The translations under genes were made by a program, and so were the position numbers. A stretch of DNA of 39,348 nt, taken from the UHGV virus genome UHGV-0146801; one strand, 5' to 3'. This document shows positions 587-38,364 of the stretch, piece after piece (within the stretch, counting starts at the first letter, position 1; every line of letters begins with the position of its first letter). The notes under the pieces are model-generated. The model was given only the letters and a program-made list of their open reading frames with translations. It was not told where the DNA came from and made no database searches. The DNA is from a virus.

Positions 587-602
587 TAGATAAGTTTTAG
601 AT

Positions 603-616
603 AACAAAAAACCCAT
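603..616. repeat. Left copy of 14-bp direct repeat AACAAAAAACCCAT (candidate prophage att core)
   Basis: Identical 14-mer at 36521..36534; lies between the host rcdA stop and phage int. Confidence 0.55.
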
Positions 617-690: not shown

Positions 691-1743
691 TTACGGGGTA
701 ATGCCAACCGCTGCCGCCACTTTGTCGCCACTTGGCAGCGTTGCCAGAGGATTGAAACGGAGCGCCGTTTCCAGATGATCCGGTGCCAGATGTGCGTAAC
801 GCATAGTCATTTTTATATCGTGGTGTCCGAGAATTTTTTGTAAGGCCAGAATGTTTCCACCCGACATCATGAAGTGCGCCGCAAACGTATGGCGCAGAAC
901 GTGTGTGAGTTGACCGCGAGGGAGCACGATAGACGTTTTTTCCATCACGGATAAAAATTGAAAATAGCAGTCTGTAAAGAAATTGAACCCATCAAGCGCC
1001 ATGATCTCTTCGTAAAGCTCTTTACTTATAGGGATGCTTCTGTTTTTCTTCCCCTTCGTTCTGACAAAGGTAATTCGGTATTTGGTCACCTGTGAGCGGG
1101 TAAGATTTACGGCTTCACGCCAGCGTGCGCCTGTGCTTAAGCATATCTTAACTACCAGTGCCAGAATTGGGTCCTGACGTTTGCAATCAGCCAGCAATTC
1201 AACAATCTGCTCATGGGTAAGCCATGCCATCTCTTTTTCTGCGATGGTGAATTTTCGCATGTTCTCCAGTGGGTTCGGATACGACCATTCGCCCAGACGG
1301 GATAGTTCGCTAAAAACACTACTTAGATAGCTTTGCTCCAGGTTAATGGTGACCGGGCTTGCTCCTTTCTTCCATTTCTCGCTGAAGTAGATCTCGCCTG
1401 TCAGGCGTTTATCTCGATAGTGGGCAAACATTTTAGAGGTGAGATCGGTTGCAAGAGGATTGCCCAGAGCGTCAACCATCAACAGCAATTTGTCATAGAC
1501 ATGCTGCCCAGCTGTCAGAGATTTACCATGTAGTTTGAACCATAGCTCAACCACGTCTTTCAGTGTTCGACGATCCACTGATTCACCCAGCCAGGGCTTT
1601 GCTTCGGTTTCTTCCATCGTGTGGCGCTCAAAAGCCAGAGCTTCGCCTTTGGTGGCGAATTGTTTACGCACCCGACGCCCACTACGTCCGGCGGGGTAAC
1701 ATTCGCAAAGCCATTTTCCTGTGGTGAGTTTTCGTACTGCCAT
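691..1743 (-). CDS. int: Tyrosine integrase, P2-type
   Basis: 350 aa; C-terminal catalytic region with HVLRHTFA...LGHHDIKMTMRYAHL (R..HxxR..Y signature); adjacent to att repeat. Confidence 0.9.
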   Translation of the reverse strand: MAVRKLTTGKWLCECYPAGRSGRRVRKQFATKGEALAFERHTMEETEAKPWLGESVDRRTLKDVVELWFKLHGKSLTAGQHVYDKLLLMVDALGNPLATDLTSKMFAHYRDKRLTGEIYFSEKWKKGASPVTINLEQSYLSSVFSELSRLGEWSYPNPLENMRKFTIAEKEMAWLTHEQIVELLADCKRQDPILALVVKICLSTGARWREAVNLTRSQVTKYRITFVRTKGKKNRSIPISKELYEEIMALDGFNFFTDCYFQFLSVMEKTSIVLPRGQLTHVLRHTFAAHFMMSGGNILALQKILGHHDIKMTMRYAHLAPDHLETALRFNPLATLPSGDKVAAAVGITP

Positions 1744-1829
1744 AATAAAGCCCTCATATCAGAGGGCTAAATTTAACTGTATGTTTGACCAGTGGTCAAT
1801 GTATGGTTTAGTTTATTCAAACAATGCTT

Positions 1830-3347
1830 TTAATCAAATGATGTGGCCAGTTCAATTAATTCAATGTAATTATGTAAGGCATAAAAAGATGTATTCAGTC
1901 CATTCTCTATAAGGGCTCCTTGCAAATACTTTATAGCTGTATCACCATCAATAGGGCCTTGTTGAGATTTAATCATTAGTGAATTTTGCCCATTGTTTTT
2001 TATACTTGATTTAAGTATTTTTATATTATTGATAAAATACAATGCAACATCTAAGTAATTTATTAATGTTAAACTTATTTTGGGCTCGATCTGTGAGATG
2101 AATAATCTACTGTTCGCCGTTGTATAGATATAATTGACACCTATTCTTTGCTGATTTGTATCAAGATTTAATTCAAGGATGGCTTGAGAAACACCTTTTA
2201 AATTGGAGCTTTGCTTTATCGAATCAGTGAAACGTTGTGCTGCATTTCTTCGACCAATTAGTCCATCTATAATTTGACGATCCTTATCATATATAATCAT
2301 TAGCGAAATTATAAAAATATAATCTACTTTCTTTTTGACTAAATCAGATTTAAGAATGTCTATTAACCTTTCAGTATTTCGGATTGAGTCTCTTAGATTT
2401 AACCCAAATGCTTCAAATACGTTGGAAATATTTATTGAAAAGTCTTCTAATGTTGCGGTTAGTGGGTATGTTTTTGATGTGATATTTTCAAACTCGGTAC
2501 CAATATAATCACCAACAACACCATTAATTAAATCTTTAAGTTCAGGTTGTTTTAAAGTAAATCTTCTATGAAAAAAACGGCCTAAATAGTCATTTGCGGA
2601 AAAATCATTACCGTAAACATTCTTGATTGAATGTTGTAATTGATCTGTGTCAGTAGCAATAATAAAGACAAAATTTTTAATATCGAATATATGTTTAACA
2701 ATCTCTAAAAGAGAAATTGCATAATCTGGCCTGCATCTGTCTAATTCATCTATAAAGATAAATATAGGACATGAAAAACTATTTTCATATGCCAACCTAG
2801 ACCATAACGTAAGTTCTTTTTTTAATACCTTAATGCTCTTCAGTTTTTCCTGGTGTTCCTTCAGCATTATTAATGAGGCTTCTTTGGCTATATCACCTAC
2901 GTTATCTACTCCTGCATAAGTCTTGATTAGGCCAGATATGATTTCAGGTAGAACACCTTTTGTAAAGCGTCCGATAGCATGGCCGCTTTGTATCAATCGA
3001 GCATCAAGTTTTCCTGCATATGTTTGCAATTGTTGTGACAAAGAAGAAAAAAGGGTTAAAAATGCATCATCAGAAAAGTCTTGCTTCCAGGCATCAATGT
3101 AAACGCATGGGTGTGCATCTTTTATTGAGTTATAAAATCTCTTTATGAAAAAACTTTTACCAGCTCCCCATTCTGCATTAAGGTTGATTACCGTGTTGTT
3201 CTTTTGCCCCTTTTCCTTAAGATAAAAATATAGATATTCTGCATAGTGTCTCCGATTAAGTTTGTCTTTGGAGAGAATTTCCTCTTCGTCGTCTAATATA
3301 AAGGTAGTTTCTTCATCCCAGTTCCAATTACAATCACCACATTTCAC
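1830..3347 (-). CDS. KAP-family P-loop NTPase (cargo, candidate defence gene)
   Basis: 505 aa; Walker A with KAP-type tryptophan NAEWGAGKSFF and Walker B IFIFIDELDRCRP (DELDRC motif); AT-rich coding sequence. Confidence 0.8.
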   Translation of the reverse strand: MKCGDCNWNWDEETTFILDDEEEILSKDKLNRRHYAEYLYFYLKEKGQKNNTVINLNAEWGAGKSFFIKRFYNSIKDAHPCVYIDAWKQDFSDDAFLTLFSSLSQQLQTYAGKLDARLIQSGHAIGRFTKGVLPEIISGLIKTYAGVDNVGDIAKEASLIMLKEHQEKLKSIKVLKKELTLWSRLAYENSFSCPIFIFIDELDRCRPDYAISLLEIVKHIFDIKNFVFIIATDTDQLQHSIKNVYGNDFSANDYLGRFFHRRFTLKQPELKDLINGVVGDYIGTEFENITSKTYPLTATLEDFSINISNVFEAFGLNLRDSIRNTERLIDILKSDLVKKKVDYIFIISLMIIYDKDRQIIDGLIGRRNAAQRFTDSIKQSSNLKGVSQAILELNLDTNQQRIGVNYIYTTANSRLFISQIEPKISLTLINYLDVALYFINNIKILKSSIKNNGQNSLMIKSQQGPIDGDTAIKYLQGALIENGLNTSFYALHNYIELIELATSFD

Positions 3348-3372
3348 TATGAAGTCTCCATGAAAAATTTAC

Positions 3373-4296
3373 TTAATGTAAACAACTTATAATAACTTTT
3401 GCAATAAACTCAATGTCTGTAAGCGAACATTCAAAAGAGTGATTTTTGGATGAAATATAAACTCGTCCTTTAGGTAGTCGAGTTATCATTCTAAATGAAT
3501 TCTCTCCATCAATATTTACTAGCCACTTACCATCATGTACATCTTTAAAACCCATTTCACATATTAATTCAGAGTCTTCGGTAGATACTACGAATGCATT
3601 TTTTAAATTGGAAGGTAGAAAACATGGGTCAAATAAATATGAGCCATCATTTATTAACTTGCCATTGATTAATACTTTTTTCACTAATGTTAAAGTATCT
3701 TTATTTTTTGCGTTTTTCATTTCTCCTGTACCAAATGAAATCCATTCAATAGAATGGCCCGTTTCTATTGCACACTGCAAAACCCAGTCTGCAGGAAAAA
3801 TGTCACGCATGTATCGTGTGGCTAATGTGCTTTTTGAAATACCTAGGTGATCAGCTAATGCTTGGCGCGTTTTGTAACCGTAAGCCTCGACAATTCGTTC
3901 TATTGTTGCCTTACCCCCTCGGTTAAAATTCATGAGTTTTTCATTATCGAACTTTATAGTGGGAATGTATACTTCATTGCAAAGGCCATTAACGGCATGT
4001 TTTTCAGAATATTGCTCTGATGAAGGAGCAGTATCTGAACCAAGAACTAACCATTCAATTGATGCTCCTGTTTCTATGGAACATATAACAACCCAATCTG
4101 CAGGAAAGGTATTACGTGCATATCTGTTGGCCATAGTACTTTGGGAAATACCTAGATGATTACATAATGCCTGTCGTGACTTGAAGCCATAGGCTAGGAG
4201 TATACGCTCAATAACTTTTTGCCCTCCACGATTCTGCATGACTATTGCTTTCAGATCGTTTTTGATATGGCTAAATTTTAATTTTTGAGTTGACAT
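3373..4296 (-). CDS. CI-repressor paralog with two tandem N-terminal HTH domains and a CI-like C-terminal domain
   Basis: 307 aa; two copies of the I(E)R(I/M)(L/V)xAYG(F/Y)K(S/T)RQAL..HLGISxST(M/L)A.RY.R..FPADWV block, and a C-terminus that aligns with the adjacent CI (LPKGRV vs LPGGRI, FLPSNLKNAFVV vs FLPSTLKNPFVI). Confidence 0.75.
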   Translation of the reverse strand: MSTQKLKFSHIKNDLKAIVMQNRGGQKVIERILLAYGFKSRQALCNHLGISQSTMANRYARNTFPADWVVICSIETGASIEWLVLGSDTAPSSEQYSEKHAVNGLCNEVYIPTIKFDNEKLMNFNRGGKATIERIVEAYGYKTRQALADHLGISKSTLATRYMRDIFPADWVLQCAIETGHSIEWISFGTGEMKNAKNKDTLTLVKKVLINGKLINDGSYLFDPCFLPSNLKNAFVVSTEDSELICEMGFKDVHDGKWLVNIDGENSFRMITRLPKGRVYISSKNHSFECSLTDIEFIAKVIISCLH

Positions 4297-4346
4297 ATTT
4301 TTTACACCACAACAAATGCTTTACCAAGCATAAAAACATTCCTATA

Positions 4347-4922
4347 TTACTCAAAGTACTTAACTGTTATGGTTATAATTTTTCCAATAATTTCGATTTC
4401 TTCTTTTTTACATTCGAAAGCCCTATTTCCACCTTCAACTAAGATTCTTCCACCAGGTAAACGAGTGATATCGCGGATTGTTACTTCGGCATCAATACTT
4501 ATTACCCATTTGCCGTCACGAATATCGTTAAACTCTTTATCGCAAATAAAAACGGAATTGTTATCGGTGATTACAAACGGATTTTTGAGCGTAGATGGTA
4601 GAAATTCTTTATCGAAAATATAAAAACCATCTTCCTGCAAGGTTCCATCAGATAATACATATTTAACGACTTCCATAGTATTTGTATTACCTGAAGTTTG
4701 CTTTGAACCATGTCCGGTCGTGAGCCAGTTAAGCGAGGCGCCCGTTTCAAGTGCGCACTGGATTACCCATTCAGCAGGGAATGAGTCACGCATATAGCGT
4801 GTGGCGAGAGTACTTTTAGAGATTCCTAAGTGATCGCACAACGCCTGTCGAGTCTTGAAGCCATATGCTTCTACCATGCGCTCTATAGCGCCTCGTCCGC
4901 CTTTCTCCAAATTCATGGTCAC
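4347..4922 (-). CDS. cI: Immunity repressor CI, phage 186 type
   Basis: 191 aa; N-terminal HTH (AYGFKTRQALCDHLGISKSTLATRY) and C-terminal oligomerisation-like domain; divergent from apl/cII as in 186. Confidence 0.85.
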   Translation of the reverse strand: MTMNLEKGGRGAIERMVEAYGFKTRQALCDHLGISKSTLATRYMRDSFPAEWVIQCALETGASLNWLTTGHGSKQTSGNTNTMEVVKYVLSDGTLQEDGFYIFDKEFLPSTLKNPFVITDNNSVFICDKEFNDIRDGKWVISIDAEVTIRDITRLPGGRILVEGGNRAFECKKEEIEIIGKIITITVKYFE

Positions 4923-4940
4923 TCCAAGTGAACTTTTGTC

Positions 4941-4969
4941 TTGACGATTTCATTATGCGATCGTATGTT
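4941..4969 (+). promoter_or_regulatory. Candidate lytic promoter pR (-35 TTGACG, 17-bp spacer, -10 TATGTT) in the cI-apl switch region
   Basis: Sigma70-like hexamers with canonical spacing read in the 119-bp cI/apl intergenic region. Confidence 0.4.
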
Positions 4970-5041
4970 TATGATGTTCACAAAATACAAACGATCCGTA
5001 TTCGTCCTGATTAATCAACATTAAACGAGGAATGTTGCATC

Positions 5042-5263
5042 ATGAAACATAACATTTCAATCACTCTTACCACGCCTCATGTGACTATTGAACGTTATAG
5101 CGAGCTGACAGGGCTATCCATCGATACTATCAATGACATGTTGGCTGATGGACGTCTTATCCGTCACCGTCTGCGGAAAGATAAAAAACGCGAAAAAGTG
5201 ATGATCAACATAGCAGCCATGACCGTTGATGCGCTTTCAGAATGCAATCTAAACCTTAATTAG
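5042..5263 (+). CDS. apl: Apl/Cox-like excisionase-repressor
   Basis: 73 aa small basic protein, first gene of the rightward operon facing cI; position as in phage 186. Confidence 0.6.
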
Positions 5264-5289
5264 TTCGATTCTGAAATACATCAGAGGCA

Positions 5290-5805
5290 TTGACCATGTT
5301 TGATTACCAAGTTTCCAAACATCCACATTTTGATGAAGCCTGTCGTGCATTCGCATTGCGCCACAACCTGGTGCAACTGGCAGAACGTGCTGGCATGAAT
5401 GTGCAGATTCTGCGGAACAAGCTGAACCCAGCTCAACCTCATTTATTAACCGCACCAGAAATCTGGCTGCTTACCGATCTGACTGAAGATTCAACGCTGA
5501 TAGATGGTTTTCTGGCACAGATTCACTGCCTGCCATGTGTACCGATTAATGAGGTAGCAAAAGAGAAACTGCCGCATTACGTCATGAGTGCAACCGCAGA
5601 GATCGGGCGTGTTGCTGCAGGTGCGGTATCTGGCGATGTAAAAACCAGTGCAGGTCGTCGTGATGCTATCAGCAGCATTAACTCTGTAACACGACTGATG
5701 GCGCTGGCTGCTGTTTCATTGCAGGCCCGTTTACAGGCTAACCCTGCGATGGTGAGTGCAGTTGATACCGTGACTGGCCTCGGTGCTTCATTCGGTTTGC
5801 TGTGA
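5290..5805 (+). CDS. cII: CII-like lysogeny establishment regulator (186 type)
   Basis: 171 aa; position immediately after apl; alpha-helical N-terminus, size matches 186 CII. Confidence 0.6.
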
Positions 5806-12291: not shown

Positions 12292-13521
12292 ATGCTAGTT
12301 GCATTCAGTTTAGAAAATTACAAGAGCTTTCGCGAAAGACAGGTTCTTAGTTTTGCTTCCTCAATTGGGGATGAGCATCCTGAACATATCGTGACATTAG
12401 CGAATGGTTTAAGAGTAAACAGATTTGCCGCATTAATAGGCGGAAATGGTGTTGGTAAAACACAATTAATAAATGCTATTACTGAATTTGCAAATTCAAT
12501 TCATAGTGACACATTACACAAATTGCATATGCCTTTCCTTCTAAATAAGGAATGTCGTAACAAACCTACTTCCTATGAAGCGATACTGATTGATGAAGAG
12601 CAAAAAAACTTCGTCCGTTATGGTGTGTCAGTTTTAAATGAAGTTATTGTAGATGAGTATTTATACATTAGACCGATAAGAAAAAATGCAAGGGAACAAT
12701 GTATTTTTATTCGCAATGAAAATGGGTTGGTTTTCAAAAAGCCCGACTTAAAAAAATACGAGTCGTTGATTAATCCTGTCTTAAGAGAAAGTGGAGCTGT
12801 TGTAACTTTTGCAAAATCTTTAGAAATTGATGCTCTTGTTGAAACCCAACGCTGGGCATTAAAACAATTGCCTTATTACTCTGAAAAATTCAAAAATCCA
12901 AGTCTTAAATTTGTTGAAGGACAACTTAAGCGCCAGTTATCAGGTGAGGAAGGAAATGAAAAATTAAATGAGAGTGGTCAAAGAATTTTAAATACCTATA
13001 ATGAAATGGTTATTCAGTCGCCGCTGCATATAGATAAAGTTGAATTTGTAAGATTTGGCGAAGATAATGAGTATAAATTTGTTTATCTCATAAAAAATGA
13101 TGATGGTGATTTTACTAGAATAGGCCCTGACCGTAGGGATGAATTTTTTTCCCAAGGCACACTAAATGTTTTAACATTTTTAGCAATATTGATTTGGGCT
13201 AGTGAATATGATTTTACACTTTATGTGGATGAAATAGATTCATCTATTCACTATTCTTTGGCAAGTGCACTAATCAAAAAAATATTTGATAAAACCTGCC
13301 GTAAAAATGGTGTGCAGTTTATTATGTCTACACATAATATTCCTTTATTAGATGATGTGTTTAGAAGAGATGAGCTTAATATTATAGTCAAGGATTCATC
13401 TAAAGCGTCGATAATAACTAATGCTACGGTATTTTCTGTAAGGAAAGATGCTAAAGTGTCTGCCAAATATTTACGTGGCGAATTTGGATTAGTTCCAGCT
13501 TTTCTTGATATAAAAAACTAA
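12292..13521 (+). CDS. ABC/OLD-type P-loop ATPase (AAA_15/21-like)
   Basis: 409 aa; Walker A GGNGVGKT, signature-like FSQGT, Walker B/D-loop LYVDEIDSSIH, H-loop MSTHN; AT-rich. Confidence 0.8.
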   Translation: MLVAFSLENYKSFRERQVLSFASSIGDEHPEHIVTLANGLRVNRFAALIGGNGVGKTQLINAITEFANSIHSDTLHKLHMPFLLNKECRNKPTSYEAILIDEEQKNFVRYGVSVLNEVIVDEYLYIRPIRKNAREQCIFIRNENGLVFKKPDLKKYESLINPVLRESGAVVTFAKSLEIDALVETQRWALKQLPYYSEKFKNPSLKFVEGQLKRQLSGEEGNEKLNESGQRILNTYNEMVIQSPLHIDKVEFVRFGEDNEYKFVYLIKNDDGDFTRIGPDRRDEFFSQGTLNVLTFLAILIWASEYDFTLYVDEIDSSIHYSLASALIKKIFDKTCRKNGVQFIMSTHNIPLLDDVFRRDELNIIVKDSSKASIITNATVFSVRKDAKVSAKYLRGEFGLVPAFLDIKN

Positions 13522-13534
13522 GCGTGAGAAAAAC

Positions 13535-14614
13535 ATGACTAGCTTTGCTTATGATGGTGATATTTTGACACCTAATAATTTAGAAATTACATCCTTCGCC
13601 ACATTGAAATCAAAAATAAGAGAGCGAAGAGTATGTGTTTTTCTCGGAGCAGGATTTTCTAAAGCCTGGGATGACAAATACCCATTGAGTAATGAAGTCT
13701 TTTCCATCTCTGAAGACGAAGCATTAGAAAATATTGATGAGTATGGTTTTTTTTCTTTGTTCGACAGTCTTAAATTTAAATGGGCGGATGCTAATGCAGG
13801 TTTAGATGACAAAGCTAATGTTTTCAAGAGTTTTAAATATGCATTGGATGTTTATAAGCGATATCCAAGTTTATTGCCGTCGTATCTTGATAGGCATACG
13901 CTTGAGTTGTTTGAGGCACAAGTAAAACTATATGTAAAAAATAAGTTTGCAAAAAAAATACCGGCAAATGATTTAAAGCTAAGTCAAACTGCAAAATTTG
14001 GGCAGAATAAAAGGAATATTATTTCTTTCTTTAAGAGTTTACAGGAAGCTTCAGCACTGGATGTAGTCACAACAAACTACGATATAGTTATTGATAAAGT
14101 GCTACATCATGCATTCCCTGAACGTTCAGTTAATCGGGGTTTTCCTGTGCATCATAATAATATATTAGTGTGTCCTCAGCCTAAAGGTATAGGTTTGTAT
14201 AAGCTTAATGGAGGATTTGAGGTTGTTGCTGCAAGGGATGGTTTTAAAATAGATTATGATTCATTATTAAACGCAAAAGTTGTTCCAAATATTATCTTGC
14301 CTTCAAATGAACAAGACTATGGGGATAAATACTTTAAGTCAGCTTTTGTGAAATCCTCTACCCAGTTGAGACAAGCAGATCTGTTGATCTTTATAGGTTA
14401 TTCTTTCCCAAAGGAAGACTTTATTATTAATTTTCTTTTGAAGACTTTTCTGGATGGCGATAGTACTGAAAAAGAGACTGTTATTATTGGGCGAAATAAA
14501 TCTAGTGCTATTGAGATACACCAGCGTGCGTGTGAAGTTTTTAAAGAACTAAATGATAAATCTGCACTGTATTATTTCGGTGGTAGTTTTTCTGATTTAT
14601 GTAAACAATGTTAG
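13535..14614 (+). CDS. SIR2-like (DHS-like NAD-binding fold) protein, candidate NADase effector
   Basis: 359 aa; Rossmann motif VCVFLGAGFS, TTNYD motif (VVTTNYDIVID), C-terminal LLIFIGYSFPKED; 13 bp downstream of the ATPase. Confidence 0.75.
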   Translation: MTSFAYDGDILTPNNLEITSFATLKSKIRERRVCVFLGAGFSKAWDDKYPLSNEVFSISEDEALENIDEYGFFSLFDSLKFKWADANAGLDDKANVFKSFKYALDVYKRYPSLLPSYLDRHTLELFEAQVKLYVKNKFAKKIPANDLKLSQTAKFGQNKRNIISFFKSLQEASALDVVTTNYDIVIDKVLHHAFPERSVNRGFPVHHNNILVCPQPKGIGLYKLNGGFEVVAARDGFKIDYDSLLNAKVVPNIILPSNEQDYGDKYFKSAFVKSSTQLRQADLLIFIGYSFPKEDFIINFLLKTFLDGDSTEKETVIIGRNKSSAIEIHQRACEVFKELNDKSALYYFGGSFSDLCKQC

Positions 14615-36443: not shown

Positions 36444-36520
36444 CTCTGCCGCCAATTTGTCGCCATCATTAAAAAACAGTGCGTCTAACATCATGATTTT
36501 AAAAAGCATAAATTTCAGGC

Positions 36521-36534
36521 AACAAAAAACCCAT
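36521..36534. repeat. Right copy of 14-bp direct repeat AACAAAAAACCCAT (candidate att core), inside the ybjL terminator hairpin region
   Basis: Identical to 603..616; on the minus strand the flanking stem CCCATCAACC/GGTTGATGGG plus T6 forms a terminator-like structure downstream of ybjL. Confidence 0.55.
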
Positions 36535-36678: not shown

Positions 36679-38364
36679 TTATCCTAATCCTGGCCATACC
36701 ATGACGATGATTGTCCCTGCCAGCGTCAGCAGGACGTTGGCGATTGCGTAAGTGCCCGCATAGCCCAGCGCCGGGATATTACTGCGAGCTGTATCACTGA
36801 TGATCTCCATTGCCGGCGCGCAGGTGCGTGCGCCCATCATTGCGCCGAACAACAGTGCGCGGTTCATTCGCAATACATAAGCACCGAACAAGAAGCAGAT
36901 AACCACTGGCACCAGACTGACAATCAATCCGGCAATCAACATCTGACCGCCAATCGCGCCCAGGCCGTTATTAATACCGCTACCAGCGCTCAGACCAACG
37001 CCTGCCATAAACACCATCAAGCCGAACTCTTTCACCATGCTTAATGCACCCTGCGGAATGTAACCGAAGGTCGGGTGGTTAGCACGCATAAAGCCCAGCA
37101 TAATTCCGGCGAATAACAACCCGGCAGCGTTCCCCATGCCGAAACTGAATGTGCTGAACTGGAAGGTGATCATCCCGATCATCAGCCCAATAACAAAGAA
37201 GGCGCAGAATGCCAGCAAGTCAGTGACCTGGCTGTGAATCGAGATAAAGCCGATGCGATCGGCGATGGTTTTTACCCGGCGGGCATCGCCGCTGACTTGT
37301 AAAACGTCACCTTTGTTAAGCACGACGTTGTCATCTATCGGCATCTCAATCTGGCTACGAATGACGCGGTTAAGGAAGCAACCGTGATCGGTCAACTTCA
37401 GTTGTGCCAGGCGTTTGCCAACAGCGTTATGGTTTTTAACGACCACTTCTTCAGTGACGATACGCATGTCGAGAAGGTCACGATCGAAAACTTCTTTGCC
37501 ATTACGGAAACTGGGATCGAGTCGGGCGTGGGCGTCAGGATAGCCTACCAACGCTATTTCATCGCCCATTTGTAGTACGGCATCACCGTCTGGATTTGCC
37601 AGAATCCCGTTACGCCGAATACGTTCAATGTAGCAGCCGGTTTGTCGATAAATACCCAGTTCACGCAGATTTTTGCCGTCGGTCCAGGCTACCAGCTCCG
37701 GGCCGACGCGGTAGGCGCGGATCACCGGCAAATAAACCTTACGGTTGGCATCTGTGTCCAGGCCACGTTCGCGGGCGATTTGCTGGGCGCTGGTCTGTAA
37801 GTCCTGATGCTGCAATTTCGGCAAGTAACGCGCACCAACAATCAAACTCACCAGACCGATTAAATAGGTTAAGGCATACCCGAGGCTCAGATTATCCAGT
37901 GCCAGTGAGAGCTGCCTGCTTTCCATGCCGGAATGACGCAGTGTATCGCCAGCACCGACCAGAACCGGTGTCGACGTCATAGAGCCTGCTAACATACCGG
38001 CCGTCAGGCCAATATCCCAGCCAAACAGCTTACCTAACCCTAAGGCGATCACCAGCGCACTGCCAACCATCACCAGTGCTAACATTAGGTAATTTTTCCC
38101 ATCGCGAAAAAAAATGGAAAAAAAGTTCGGTCCGGCTTCGACCCCGACGCAGAAAATAAACAGCATAAAGCCAAGATTAAGCGCATCGGTGTTAATGCTG
38201 AAATGTTGTTGGCCTAATAACAGCGATACGACTAAAACGCCAATGGAATTACCCAGTTGGATCGAACCAAGTCGTAATTTCCCGAGACATAGCCCAAGCG
38301 CGAGGACCACAAATAATAACAGAATGTAATTCCCATTTAACAATTCGGCGACGTTTATATTCAC
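36679..38364 (-). CDS. ybjL: Putative transporter YbjL (host)
   Basis: 561 aa polytopic membrane protein with central soluble domains; matches recalled E. coli YbjL. Confidence 0.8.

What the first reader, a model, noticed from the sequence alone, without database searches (positions are those of the whole stretch)
1830..3347. KAP-family P-loop NTPase inserted in the lysogenic cI-int operon
In 186-type phages cI and int are adjacent and co-transcribed in the lysogen. Here two extra genes sit between them on the same strand. The distal one is a 505-aa KAP NTPase (NAEWGAGKS Walker A, DELDRC Walker B) in markedly AT-rich DNA. Genes placed here are expressed from the prophage, which is the typical arrangement for superinfection-exclusion or defence cargo. 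To my knowledge stand-alone KAP NTPases have been proposed but not well characterised as defence proteins.
Basis: partly seen in the sequence, partly recalled or inferred. Interest (0 to 1): 0.75.

Follow-up and report, generated by a model that had tools for sequence, protein, structure and literature searches.

The report
KAP NTPase cargo in prophage hotspot
A soluble KAP-type ATPase gene and a spare phage-repressor gene sit in a swap-in slot between the repressor and integrase genes of an E. coli 186-like prophage; sister prophages carry proven anti-phage genes in that slot, so the ATPase is most likely an untested member of an already catalogued family of candidate anti-phage genes.

Summary
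Window 1830-3347 (-) encodes a 505-aa KAP P-loop NTPase (Pfam 7.8e-46) in 32% GC DNA, between cI and int of a 35.9-kb 186-like prophage at rcdA/ybjL. The prophage is near-identical to one in EPEC E2348/69.

The defence-cargo reading is well supported by comparison but is untested.
- Among 80 E. coli prophage contigs with the same integrase, 41 have an empty slot. The other 39 carry cargo: PD-Lambda-1, Old, PDC-M11, PDC-M18, an OLD-like ATPase, four KAP variants, or unknowns.
- The protein matches PADLOC candidate PDC-S20 (6.8e-78).
- Relatives at 29-80% identity occupy the same slot in Klebsiella, Enterobacter, Yersinia and E. coli W.
- dN/dS against orthologues is 0.05-0.08.

PifA, Tmn, EF_KAP and Reve are validated KAP defences, and a cI-int hotspot is published for P2-related phages.

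It is always co-inherited with this KAP in E. coli.

Verdict: new member of a known kind, of moderate interest.

The parts
1830..3347 (-). KAP-family P-loop NTPase, 505 aa. Layout: N-terminal beta-hairpin (1-30), NTPase core with Walker A 57-64 and Walker B 199-204, four-helix insertion 94-187, and a fast-evolving C-terminal domain 296-505.
   Evidence: Pfam 7.8e-46. PADLOC PDC-S20 6.8e-78. AF2 model pLDDT 81.8; C-terminal model pLDDT 92.6. Per-region conservation. No TM helix.
3373..4296 (-). Second CI-family repressor, 307 aa: HTH1 - linker - HTH2 - CI C-terminal domain ('tandem cI'). It ends 25 nt upstream of the KAP start.
   Evidence: Pfam Phage_CI_repr x2 (3.8e-56) plus Phage_CI_C (1.7e-25). 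Alignment with sole-repressor tandem cIs. Always co-occurs with this KAP in E. coli, 17/17 genomes.
4347..4922 (-). [quoted passage not shown]
   Evidence: Pfam Phage_CI_repr plus Phage_CI_C. 90-92% identical to the cI of empty-slot sister prophages.
4923..5041 (.). cI/apl divergent switch region. It contains a pL-like promoter match, TGAACA-17-CATAAT, at 4980-4952 (-).
   Evidence: Consensus scan only; architecture by analogy with the annotated phage 186 record. Inferred, not shown.
4304..4306 (.). Left recombination joint. Homology to empty-slot prophages (cI plus 41 nt) ends at 4306. Homology to tandem-cI genes begins at 4304, 8 nt before the ATG.
   Evidence: blastn breakpoints.
1805..1829 (.). 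Right joint. Homology shared by all sister prophages resumes at about 1805, some 25 nt after the KAP stop codon.
   Evidence: blastn breakpoints.
1744..1799 (-). Conserved pre-int element: promoter-like TTGACC-N18-TAAATT (1799-1770), then hairpin AGCCCUC/GAGGGCU (1768-1749) plus a U-run directly abutting the int AUG.
   Evidence: Scan. Hairpin dG -14.7 kcal/mol, z -3.5. Conserved from E. coli to Yersinia with different stem sequences.
691..1743 (-). Tyrosine integrase (350 aa), last gene of the lysogenic operon.
   Evidence: Pfam Int_N plus Phage_integrase.
590..616 (+). attL-side 27-nt direct repeat. Its partner is at 36508-36534, so the prophage is about 35.9 kb.
   Evidence: the repeat finder family D2.

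Best explanation
The KAP gene is accessory anti-phage (or anti-mobile-element) cargo carried in the variable cI-int slot of a 186-like prophage.

Expression (inferred): it is transcribed in the lysogen as part of the pL lysogenic transcript cI - tandem-cI - KAP. A conserved hairpin plus U-run just before int probably ends or attenuates that transcript.

Mechanism (inferred by analogy with RdrA, STAND and KAP defence proteins; not shown):
- The protein is a soluble, single-gene NTPase switch of PADLOC candidate family PDC-S20.
- The conserved KAP/AAA+-like core binds and hydrolyses NTP and drives ring-type oligomerisation.
- The rapidly diverging C-terminal 200 residues recognise a component of an infecting phage.
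- The four-helix insertion occupies the position where canonical KAPs carry membrane helices and where RdrA carries the 'crown' that docks its effector. Here it would contact a partner.
- The output step is unknown because no nuclease, deaminase, pore or other effector domain is detectable.

The tandem cI upstream arrived with the KAP by recombination from a phage in which a cI of that lineage was the immunity repressor.

The confidence of 0.7 applies to the claim that this is a defence gene. Confidence in any particular mechanistic step is much lower.
For: - Family: Pfam KAP_NTPase 7.8e-46; PADLOC PDC-S20 6.8e-78, with weaker PifA and QatA hits to the NTPase core.
- Slot variability: 41 of 80 contigs with the same int are empty and 39 carry cargo of 1.1-2.65 kb.
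- Slot content: cargo includes PD-Lambda-1, Old, PDC-M11AB, PDC-M18AB, an AriA/OLD-like ATPase and other PDC-S20 KAPs.
- Recurrence: KAP relatives at 80, 63, 50, 38, 35 and 29% identity all sit between cI and int in Klebsiella, Enterobacter, Yersinia and E. coli prophages. More distant relatives are stand-alone chromosomal genes, which fits a one-gene system.
- Selection: dN/dS is 0.05-0.08 against Klebsiella and Enterobacter orthologues.
- Domain conservation: the NTPase core is 56-86% conserved while the last 100 residues are 16-46%.
- Transcript: no significant RNA structure lies between cI and the tandem cI. The tandem-cI/KAP gap is only 25 nt. A conserved hairpin precedes int.
- Composition: low GC, as expected for acquired DNA.
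- Same phage, second island: its A-Q hotspot carries an AbiL-like ATPase plus a SIR2-like protein.
- Precedent: single-gene KAP defences have been validated. PDC families were predicted independently because they are embedded in BREX, DISARM and type I RM loci.
Against: - No phenotype exists. PDC systems are explicitly untested, and no paper mentions PDC-S20 or this protein's accession.
- The protein lacks the membrane helices typical of KAP proteins, including Tmn and EF_KAP, so analogy with them is limited.
- Expression from pL is inferred from position only. Promoter-like hits in the region are at chance level (16 found, 15.3 expected).
- The 80 surveyed loci are the best-scoring int matches and include redundant isolates, so the proportions are not population frequencies.
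- No isolated phage in INPHARED carries a close homologue.
Confidence: 0.7

Rival explanations
1. The two inserted genes work together as a unit. In one version the tandem-HTH CI is a functional orphan repressor that gives immunity to a second immunity type of 186-like phage, with KAP covering unrelated phages. In the other version it is the transcriptional regulator of KAP.
For: - The tandem cI and this KAP allele are always together in E. coli, 17/17 genomes.
- The gap between them is 25 nt.
- Tandem-HTH cIs are the sole, and therefore functional, repressor in many sister prophages and in Klebsiella phage 4LV2017.
- The ORF is intact in all copies, with few and mostly synonymous differences.
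- An Ewingella relative of KAP is preceded by a small HTH_3 gene.
Against: - KAP orthologues in Klebsiella, Enterobacter and E. coli sit directly after a single ordinary cI with no extra repressor. KAP therefore does not need it.
- No phage was found with this tandem-cI allele as its sole repressor; the next relative is 62% identical. No cognate target phage is known.
- The co-occurrence can be explained by one recent recombination event. The segment from mid tandem-cI through KAP and int is collinear with the Klebsiella cI-KAP-int block (window 3891-732, 77% nt).
- There are too few substitutions to show selection.
Confidence: 0.2
2. KAP serves the phage's own life cycle, for example control of integration or excision, lysogeny maintenance or induction, rather than defence.
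For: It always lies inside the regulatory lysogenic operon next to cI and int, over a wide range of divergence. The cI adjacent to KAP co-varies with it, judged by shared contig lengths of the cI and KAP hits.
Against: - It is absent from most near-identical prophages, and from phage 186 itself, where cI abuts int.
- It is replaced in the same position by unrelated genes, including known defence genes.
- Homologues occur as isolated chromosomal genes far from any phage.
Confidence: 0.07
3. It is a passenger with no current function, a hitch-hiking remnant of recombination between two phages, or a host-fitness or virulence moron unrelated to phages.
For: - The block has sharp illegitimate joints and foreign GC.
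- It was first seen in an EPEC strain.
- Within-E. coli dN/dS is 0.3-0.5, based on only 5-16 differences.
Against: - Long-range dN/dS is 0.05-0.08 and all catalytic motifs are invariant.
- The family has more than 5,000 clusters at E<=1e-30.
- It is found in isolates from humans, animals, water and food, not only pathogens.
- The slot's other contents are defence genes.
Confidence: 0.08

Closest known systems
PADLOC phage-defence candidate PDC-S20 (single-gene KAP NTPase; Payne et al., bioRxiv 10.1101/2024.01.29.577857)
   Same: It is the best HMM match: PDLC04959 E=6.8e-78 over residues 20-389. It has a single-gene architecture. Other PDC-S20 variants occupy the same prophage slot.
   Different: The C-terminal ~115 residues lie outside the matched part of the profile. 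The family is an untested prediction, so membership says nothing about function.
RdrA, the ATPase of the RADAR defence system (PDB 8fnt, 8fnu, 8hr8)
   Different: RdrA is about 800-900 aa and works with the adenosine deaminase RdrB. No RdrB-like gene is adjacent here. Sequence identity is 10-13%. A heptameric ring for this protein is only inferred.
Validated single-gene KAP defences: PifA (F plasmid), Tmn, EF_KAP and related gut KAPs, Reve (P4 satellites)
   Same: All are a KAP P-loop NTPase acting as a one-gene anti-phage system on a mobile element. Walker motifs are required in Tmn and EF_KAP, and a variable C-terminal region is required in EF_KAP.
   Different: Tmn and EF_KAP have transmembrane helices; this protein has none. 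PifA matches only over the NTPase core (profile positions 15-262 of 720, E 1e-16). No Tmn model hit appeared at E<=0.01. It was picked from loci not annotated by PADLOC 2.0.0, so it probably lies outside PDC-S20 (inference).
Defence hotspots of P2-like phages and relatives (Rousset et al. 2022, PMC9122126; NAR 2026, PMC13586616)
   Same: Variable cargo sits at a fixed position of otherwise conserved prophages. [quoted passage not shown]
   Different: The classical E. coli P2 hotspots are A-Q (tin/old) and Z/fun. The text I could read does not detail the cI-int slot of E. coli 186-like (Eganvirus-type) prophages at rcdA. Here the cargo lies inside the lysogenic operon, upstream of a conserved pre-int hairpin.
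QatA of the QatABCD system
   Same: KAP-type ATPase; local HMM hit to the Walker B region.
   Different: NCBIfam QatA scores 43 bits against a cutoff of 600. No QatB, QatC or QatD genes are nearby.

Membership tests
KAP family P-loop NTPase (Pfam PF07693) | Profile match above the curated gathering score | tested here: met
   157.1 bits against a cutoff of 20, E 7.8e-46, residues 32-303.
KAP family P-loop NTPase (Pfam PF07693) | Walker A GxxGxGK[ST] and Walker B hhhhDE(L)DR motifs | tested here: met
   G60-A-G-K63-S and IFIDELDRC (196-204). These are invariant in 50 homologues.
KAP family P-loop NTPase (Pfam PF07693) | Transmembrane helices inserted in the NTPase domain between Walker A and B. 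This is typical of the family as first described (my recollection of Aravind et al. 2004). It is not universal. | tested here: not met
   The highest 19-residue Kyte-Doolittle mean is 1.43, in windows that contain charged residues. The insertion at 94-187 is modelled as four amphipathic helices.
PADLOC PDC-S20 | Match to a PDC-S20 profile as a single-gene system | tested here: met
   PDLC04959 E 6.8e-78, profile positions 11-382 of 464. Three further PDC-S20 models hit at 1e-25 to 1e-46. PADLOC's own coverage cut-offs were not applied.
PADLOC PDC-S20 | Demonstrated anti-phage activity | not testable with these tools
   PDCs are described as 145 untested candidates.
RADAR (RdrA/RdrB) | Adjacent RdrB adenosine deaminase partner | tested here: not met
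   The neighbours are a CI paralogue and int.
RADAR (RdrA/RdrB) | RdrA-like fold of the ATPase | tested here: met
Qat system (QatA) | NCBIfam QatA equivalog score and QatBCD neighbours | tested here: not met
   43.3 bits against a cutoff of 600. No such neighbours.
PifA | Full-length similarity to PifA (about 720-position profile) | tested here: not met
   Only profile positions 15-262 of 720 are matched, E 9.9e-17.
Tmn | Match to a Tmn profile, and two TM helices after Walker A | tested here: not met
   No Tmn hit appeared among PADLOC results at E<=0.01. No TM helix.
Prophage defence-hotspot cargo (moron in the lysogenic operon) | Presence/absence polymorphism at a fixed position among otherwise near-identical prophages | tested here: met
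   41 loci empty and 39 occupied, with at least 12 cargo types, among 80 loci with 99-100% identical int. Sharp joints at 4304-4306 and about 1805.
Prophage defence-hotspot cargo (moron in the lysogenic operon) | Known defence systems at the same position in relatives | tested here: met
   PD-Lambda-1 (7e-120), Old (9e-235), PDC-M11AB, PDC-M18AB and an AriA/OLD-like ATPase.
Prophage defence-hotspot cargo (moron in the lysogenic operon) | Expression from the prophage in the lysogen | not testable with these tools
   Same strand and short gaps, no predicted terminator between cI and KAP, and a conserved hairpin after it. No transcript data.

The most novel reading that the evidence does not exclude
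The 2.5-kb insert is a two-layer superinfection module. The first layer is an orphan, mosaic tandem-HTH CI repressor, expressed alongside the resident CI, that silences incoming 186-like phages of another immunity type or acts as a decoy for their antirepressors. The second layer is a membrane-less, effector-less KAP ring NTPase that blocks unrelated phages by a mechanism not yet described for KAP proteins, for example sequestration or remodelling of a phage protein, or NTP consumption, rather than a fused toxin.
Probability: 0.15. Interest if true: 0.6.

Novelty: new member of a known kind. Interest (0 to 1): 0.4.

Why it matters
A positive result would turn an untested PADLOC candidate family into a validated defence. 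That family has more than 5,000 sequence clusters and occurs in about 1.3% of complete E. coli genomes through four variants (72 of 5426).

Tractable native hosts exist. EPEC E2348/69 carries this allele and E. coli W carries a 35%-identical variant.

It would also give a minimal soluble KAP protein, with no membrane anchor and no fused effector, for working out how KAP and RdrA-like ATPases sense phage and signal.

The slot survey shows that the cI-int junction of E. coli 186-like prophages is a rich source of candidates. Several cargos there have no Pfam or PADLOC match at all.

The double-repressor arrangement raises a simple testable question about how immunity regions recombine and whether prophages can stack immunities.

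Tried and rejected
- Transmembrane insertion: a Kyte-Doolittle scan found none. No dedicated TM predictor was available.
- A profile of 50 homologues found no PDB chain by sequence.
- The afdb50 structure library was not available.
- Literature: there were no hits for 'PDC-S20' or for the protein accessions. The supplement of the NAR 2026 paper, needed for the Reve sequence, is not held, so relatedness to Reve could not be tested.
- Isolated phages: tblastn against INPHARED found only distant KAPs (<32% identity, partial), none in a 186-like phage.
- Operators for the tandem cI: a repeat search of 3300-5350 found nothing convincing. The HTH recognition helices are almost the same in all these cIs, so specificity cannot be read from sequence.
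- Terminator between cI and tandem cI: the weak ATGCTT/AAGCAT hairpin is not better than shuffles (z -0.14).
- Internal promoters: matches are at chance level.
- Selection on the tandem cI within E. coli: only 1-5 differences per pair, which is uninformative.
- QatA, PifA, Tmn and RADAR membership: rejected (see the membership tests).

Full report
WHAT IS THERE

The window holds a 35.9-kb 186-like (Peduoviridae) prophage. It is bounded by 27-nt direct repeats at 590-616 and 36508-36534 and lies between rcdA (20-586) and ybjL (36679-38364; NCBIfam PRK04972).

The left arm reads, on the minus strand: cI (4347-4922, 191 aa), a 307-aa gene (3373-4296), the 505-aa gene of the finding (1830-3347) and int (691-1743). 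apl and cII are on the plus strand.

The same 4.7 kb is found at 99-99.9% identity in 16 complete E. coli genomes, including EPEC E2348/69, and at 97% in a 17th. There the genes are annotated 'KAP family P-loop NTPase fold protein' and, twice, 'phage repressor protein CI'.

- Pfam KAP_NTPase matches at E 7.8e-46.
- The gene has 32% GC against 49.6% for the window.
- In phage 186 itself the cI stop overlaps the int start, and the record annotates one lysogenic operon, cI-int-orf69, driven by pL and pE. Genes between cI and int are therefore an addition.

THE SLOT IS A CARGO HOTSPOT

I fetched 80 IMG/VR contigs whose integrase is 99-100% identical to this one and mapped cI, apl, cII, int and the two extra genes on them.

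- 41 contigs have a junction of about 400 bp with only a 63-aa ORF.
- 39 contigs carry 1.1-2.65 kb of cargo in at least a dozen forms.

PADLOC identifies the cargo as follows:

- PD-Lambda-1 (12 loci)
- a P2 Old homologue (3 loci)
- PDC-M18AB
- PDC-M11AB
- a 662-aa AriA/OLD-like ATPase
- two further KAP variants of family PDC-S20

Several other cargos match nothing in PADLOC or Pfam.

Homology to the empty-slot prophages stops 41 nt after the cI stop (window 4306) and resumes about 62 nt before the int start (window 1805). The insert therefore has sharp joints.

Caveat: these 80 loci are the best int matches and include redundant isolates. In complete genomes, 1136 of 5426 match part of the region and 17 carry this KAP.

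THE KAP FAMILY

The protein hits PADLOC candidate PDC-S20 at 6.8e-78. It hits PifA and QatA only over the NTPase core. It fails the NCBIfam QatA cutoff by a wide margin.

PDC families are 145 untested candidates, predicted because they are embedded inside BREX, DISARM or type I RM loci.

Relatives at every level of divergence that I looked up in Enterobacterales sit in the same place, directly upstream of int and downstream of a cI:

| Host | Identity to window KAP |
|---|---|
| Klebsiella | 80% |
| Enterobacter | 63% |
| Yersinia (with an extra 327-aa unknown gene) | 50% |
| Enterobacter | 38% |
| E. coli, including strain W | 35% |
| E. coli | 29% |

Four variants together occur in 72 of 5426 complete E. 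coli genomes.

Further relatives in Ewingella, Aeromonas and Pseudoalteromonas are isolated chromosomal genes. One of them follows a small HTH gene. This fits a self-sufficient one-gene system.

A profile search finds 5,349 cluster representatives at E<=1e-30, mostly 450-570 aa. dN/dS against the Klebsiella and Enterobacter orthologues is 0.05-0.08.

THE PROTEIN

- There is no transmembrane segment. This differs from canonical KAPs, Tmn and EF_KAP.
- The AlphaFold model (pLDDT 81.8) shows a short N-terminal beta-hairpin and a P-loop core.
- The stretch between Walker A and Walker B carries four helices (94-187, lower confidence).
- The core is 56-86% conserved across the family. The last 100 residues fall to 16-46%.
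- RdrA is a heptameric ring. Its four-helix insertion at the corresponding place forms the 'crown' that docks the effector RdrB, and its helical C-terminus also lacks known homologues.

HOW IT PROBABLY WORKS

What is shown:
- The gene is a conserved, selectively maintained KAP NTPase.
- It occupies a polymorphic slot that holds defence genes in sister prophages.

What is inferred:
- It is co-transcribed with cI from pL. The evidence is the same strand, gaps of 50 and 25 nt, and no significant structure between cI and the next gene.
- The transcript is ended or attenuated at a conserved hairpin plus U-run that abuts the int AUG. The hairpin has dG -14.7 kcal/mol and z -3.5. It is preserved with different stem sequences in an empty-slot E. 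coli prophage and in Yersinia.
- The NTPase acts as a switch that oligomerises when the variable C-terminal domain meets a phage component.

The output step is unknown. I put about 0.7 on 'anti-phage or anti-MGE defence gene' and much less on any particular mechanism.

THE OTHER INSERTED GENE

The 307-aa protein has two Phage_CI_repr HTH domains and one CI C-terminal domain.

Proteins of this tandem architecture are the only repressor in many sister prophages and in Klebsiella phage 4LV2017. Among them HTH1 is 87% conserved and the C-terminal domain only 39%.

The window's copy is a mosaic:
- Its N-terminal 180 residues are about 80% identical in DNA to E. coli tandem cIs.
- From mid-gene onward it is collinear with the Klebsiella cI-KAP-int block (window 3891-732, 77%).
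- Its C-terminal domain is 72% identical to that Klebsiella cI.

The allele is found only together with this KAP. The next relative among 5.8 billion proteins is 62% identical.

The simplest reading is that one recombination event between two phages left the donor's repressor behind the resident one. Whether it is still used, for heteroimmunity, as a decoy or as a regulator of KAP, cannot be decided here.

COMPARISON WITH WHAT IS KNOWN

- Single-gene KAP defences are no longer hypothetical. Examples are PifA, Tmn, EF_KAP and three gut KAPs and Reve from P4 satellites.
- Defence hotspots of P2-like phages are well described. A cI-int hotspot was noted for Vibrio K139-like phages. 8% of P2 systems lie between integrase and primase.
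- This same prophage also carries an AbiL-like ATPase plus a SIR2-like protein in the classical A-Q hotspot.

The finding is therefore a new, untested member of known kinds: the PDC-S20 KAP family in a prophage defence hotspot. Three modest twists remain: a membrane-less, effector-less KAP; an RdrA-like fold; and the accompanying second repressor.

Noticed in passing
window 3373-4296 (-): A second CI-family repressor with two tandem HTH domains sits directly behind the resident cI. Only this prophage type (17 E. coli genomes; L019 and L025) has both. It is a mosaic of an E. coli tandem-cI N-terminus and a Klebsiella-type cI C-terminus. No phage is known with this allele as its sole repressor.
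   Followed up: partly
L027, L048, L051, L063, L086, L087, L091; Klebsiella phage 4LV2017 (L003): Tandem-HTH CI proteins of about 310 aa are the sole immunity repressor of many 186-like prophages. Their first HTH domain is 87% conserved across immunity types, while the oligomerisation domain is only 39% conserved. I found no description of this architecture in the papers searched.
   Followed up: partly
window 12292-13521 (+) and 13535-14614 (+): A second low-GC island (33-42% GC) lies between replication gene A and portal gene Q, the classical P2 tin/old hotspot. It encodes an AbiL-like ATPase (PADLOC AbiLi 2.2e-51) and a SIR2-like protein (2e-9). This is probably a two-gene defence system.
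   Followed up: partly
window 1744-1799 (-): A conserved element lies just upstream of int: promoter-like TTGACC-N18-TAAATT, then a stable hairpin plus U-run that includes the int Shine-Dalgarno sequence and abuts the AUG. It is kept from E. coli to Yersinia with different stem sequences. It may terminate the cI-cargo transcript and/or gate int translation.
   Followed up: partly
L044:6445-7911, L051:6945-7919, L075:6205-7910, L080:5408-6472, L087:4094-5161, L063:6255-7911, L010:4986-5969: Cargo genes in the same cI-int slot of sister prophages have no PADLOC hit and no significant Pfam hit. Given their position, they are candidate new defence genes.
   Followed up: partly
L101:7879-10540: In an Enterobacter locus, a GIY-YIG protein, a reverse transcriptase and an STM3845-family protein (retron-like) lie just outside the int/att end of the KAP-carrying prophage.
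   Followed up: no
NC_017664.1 958306-959757 (E. coli W) and DH5alpha record NZ_CP026085.1: The 35%-identical KAP variant (L093 type) is present in the laboratory strain E. coli W, and in a record labelled DH5alpha. This could serve as an easy experimental system. The DH5alpha label looks odd and was not checked.
   Followed up: no
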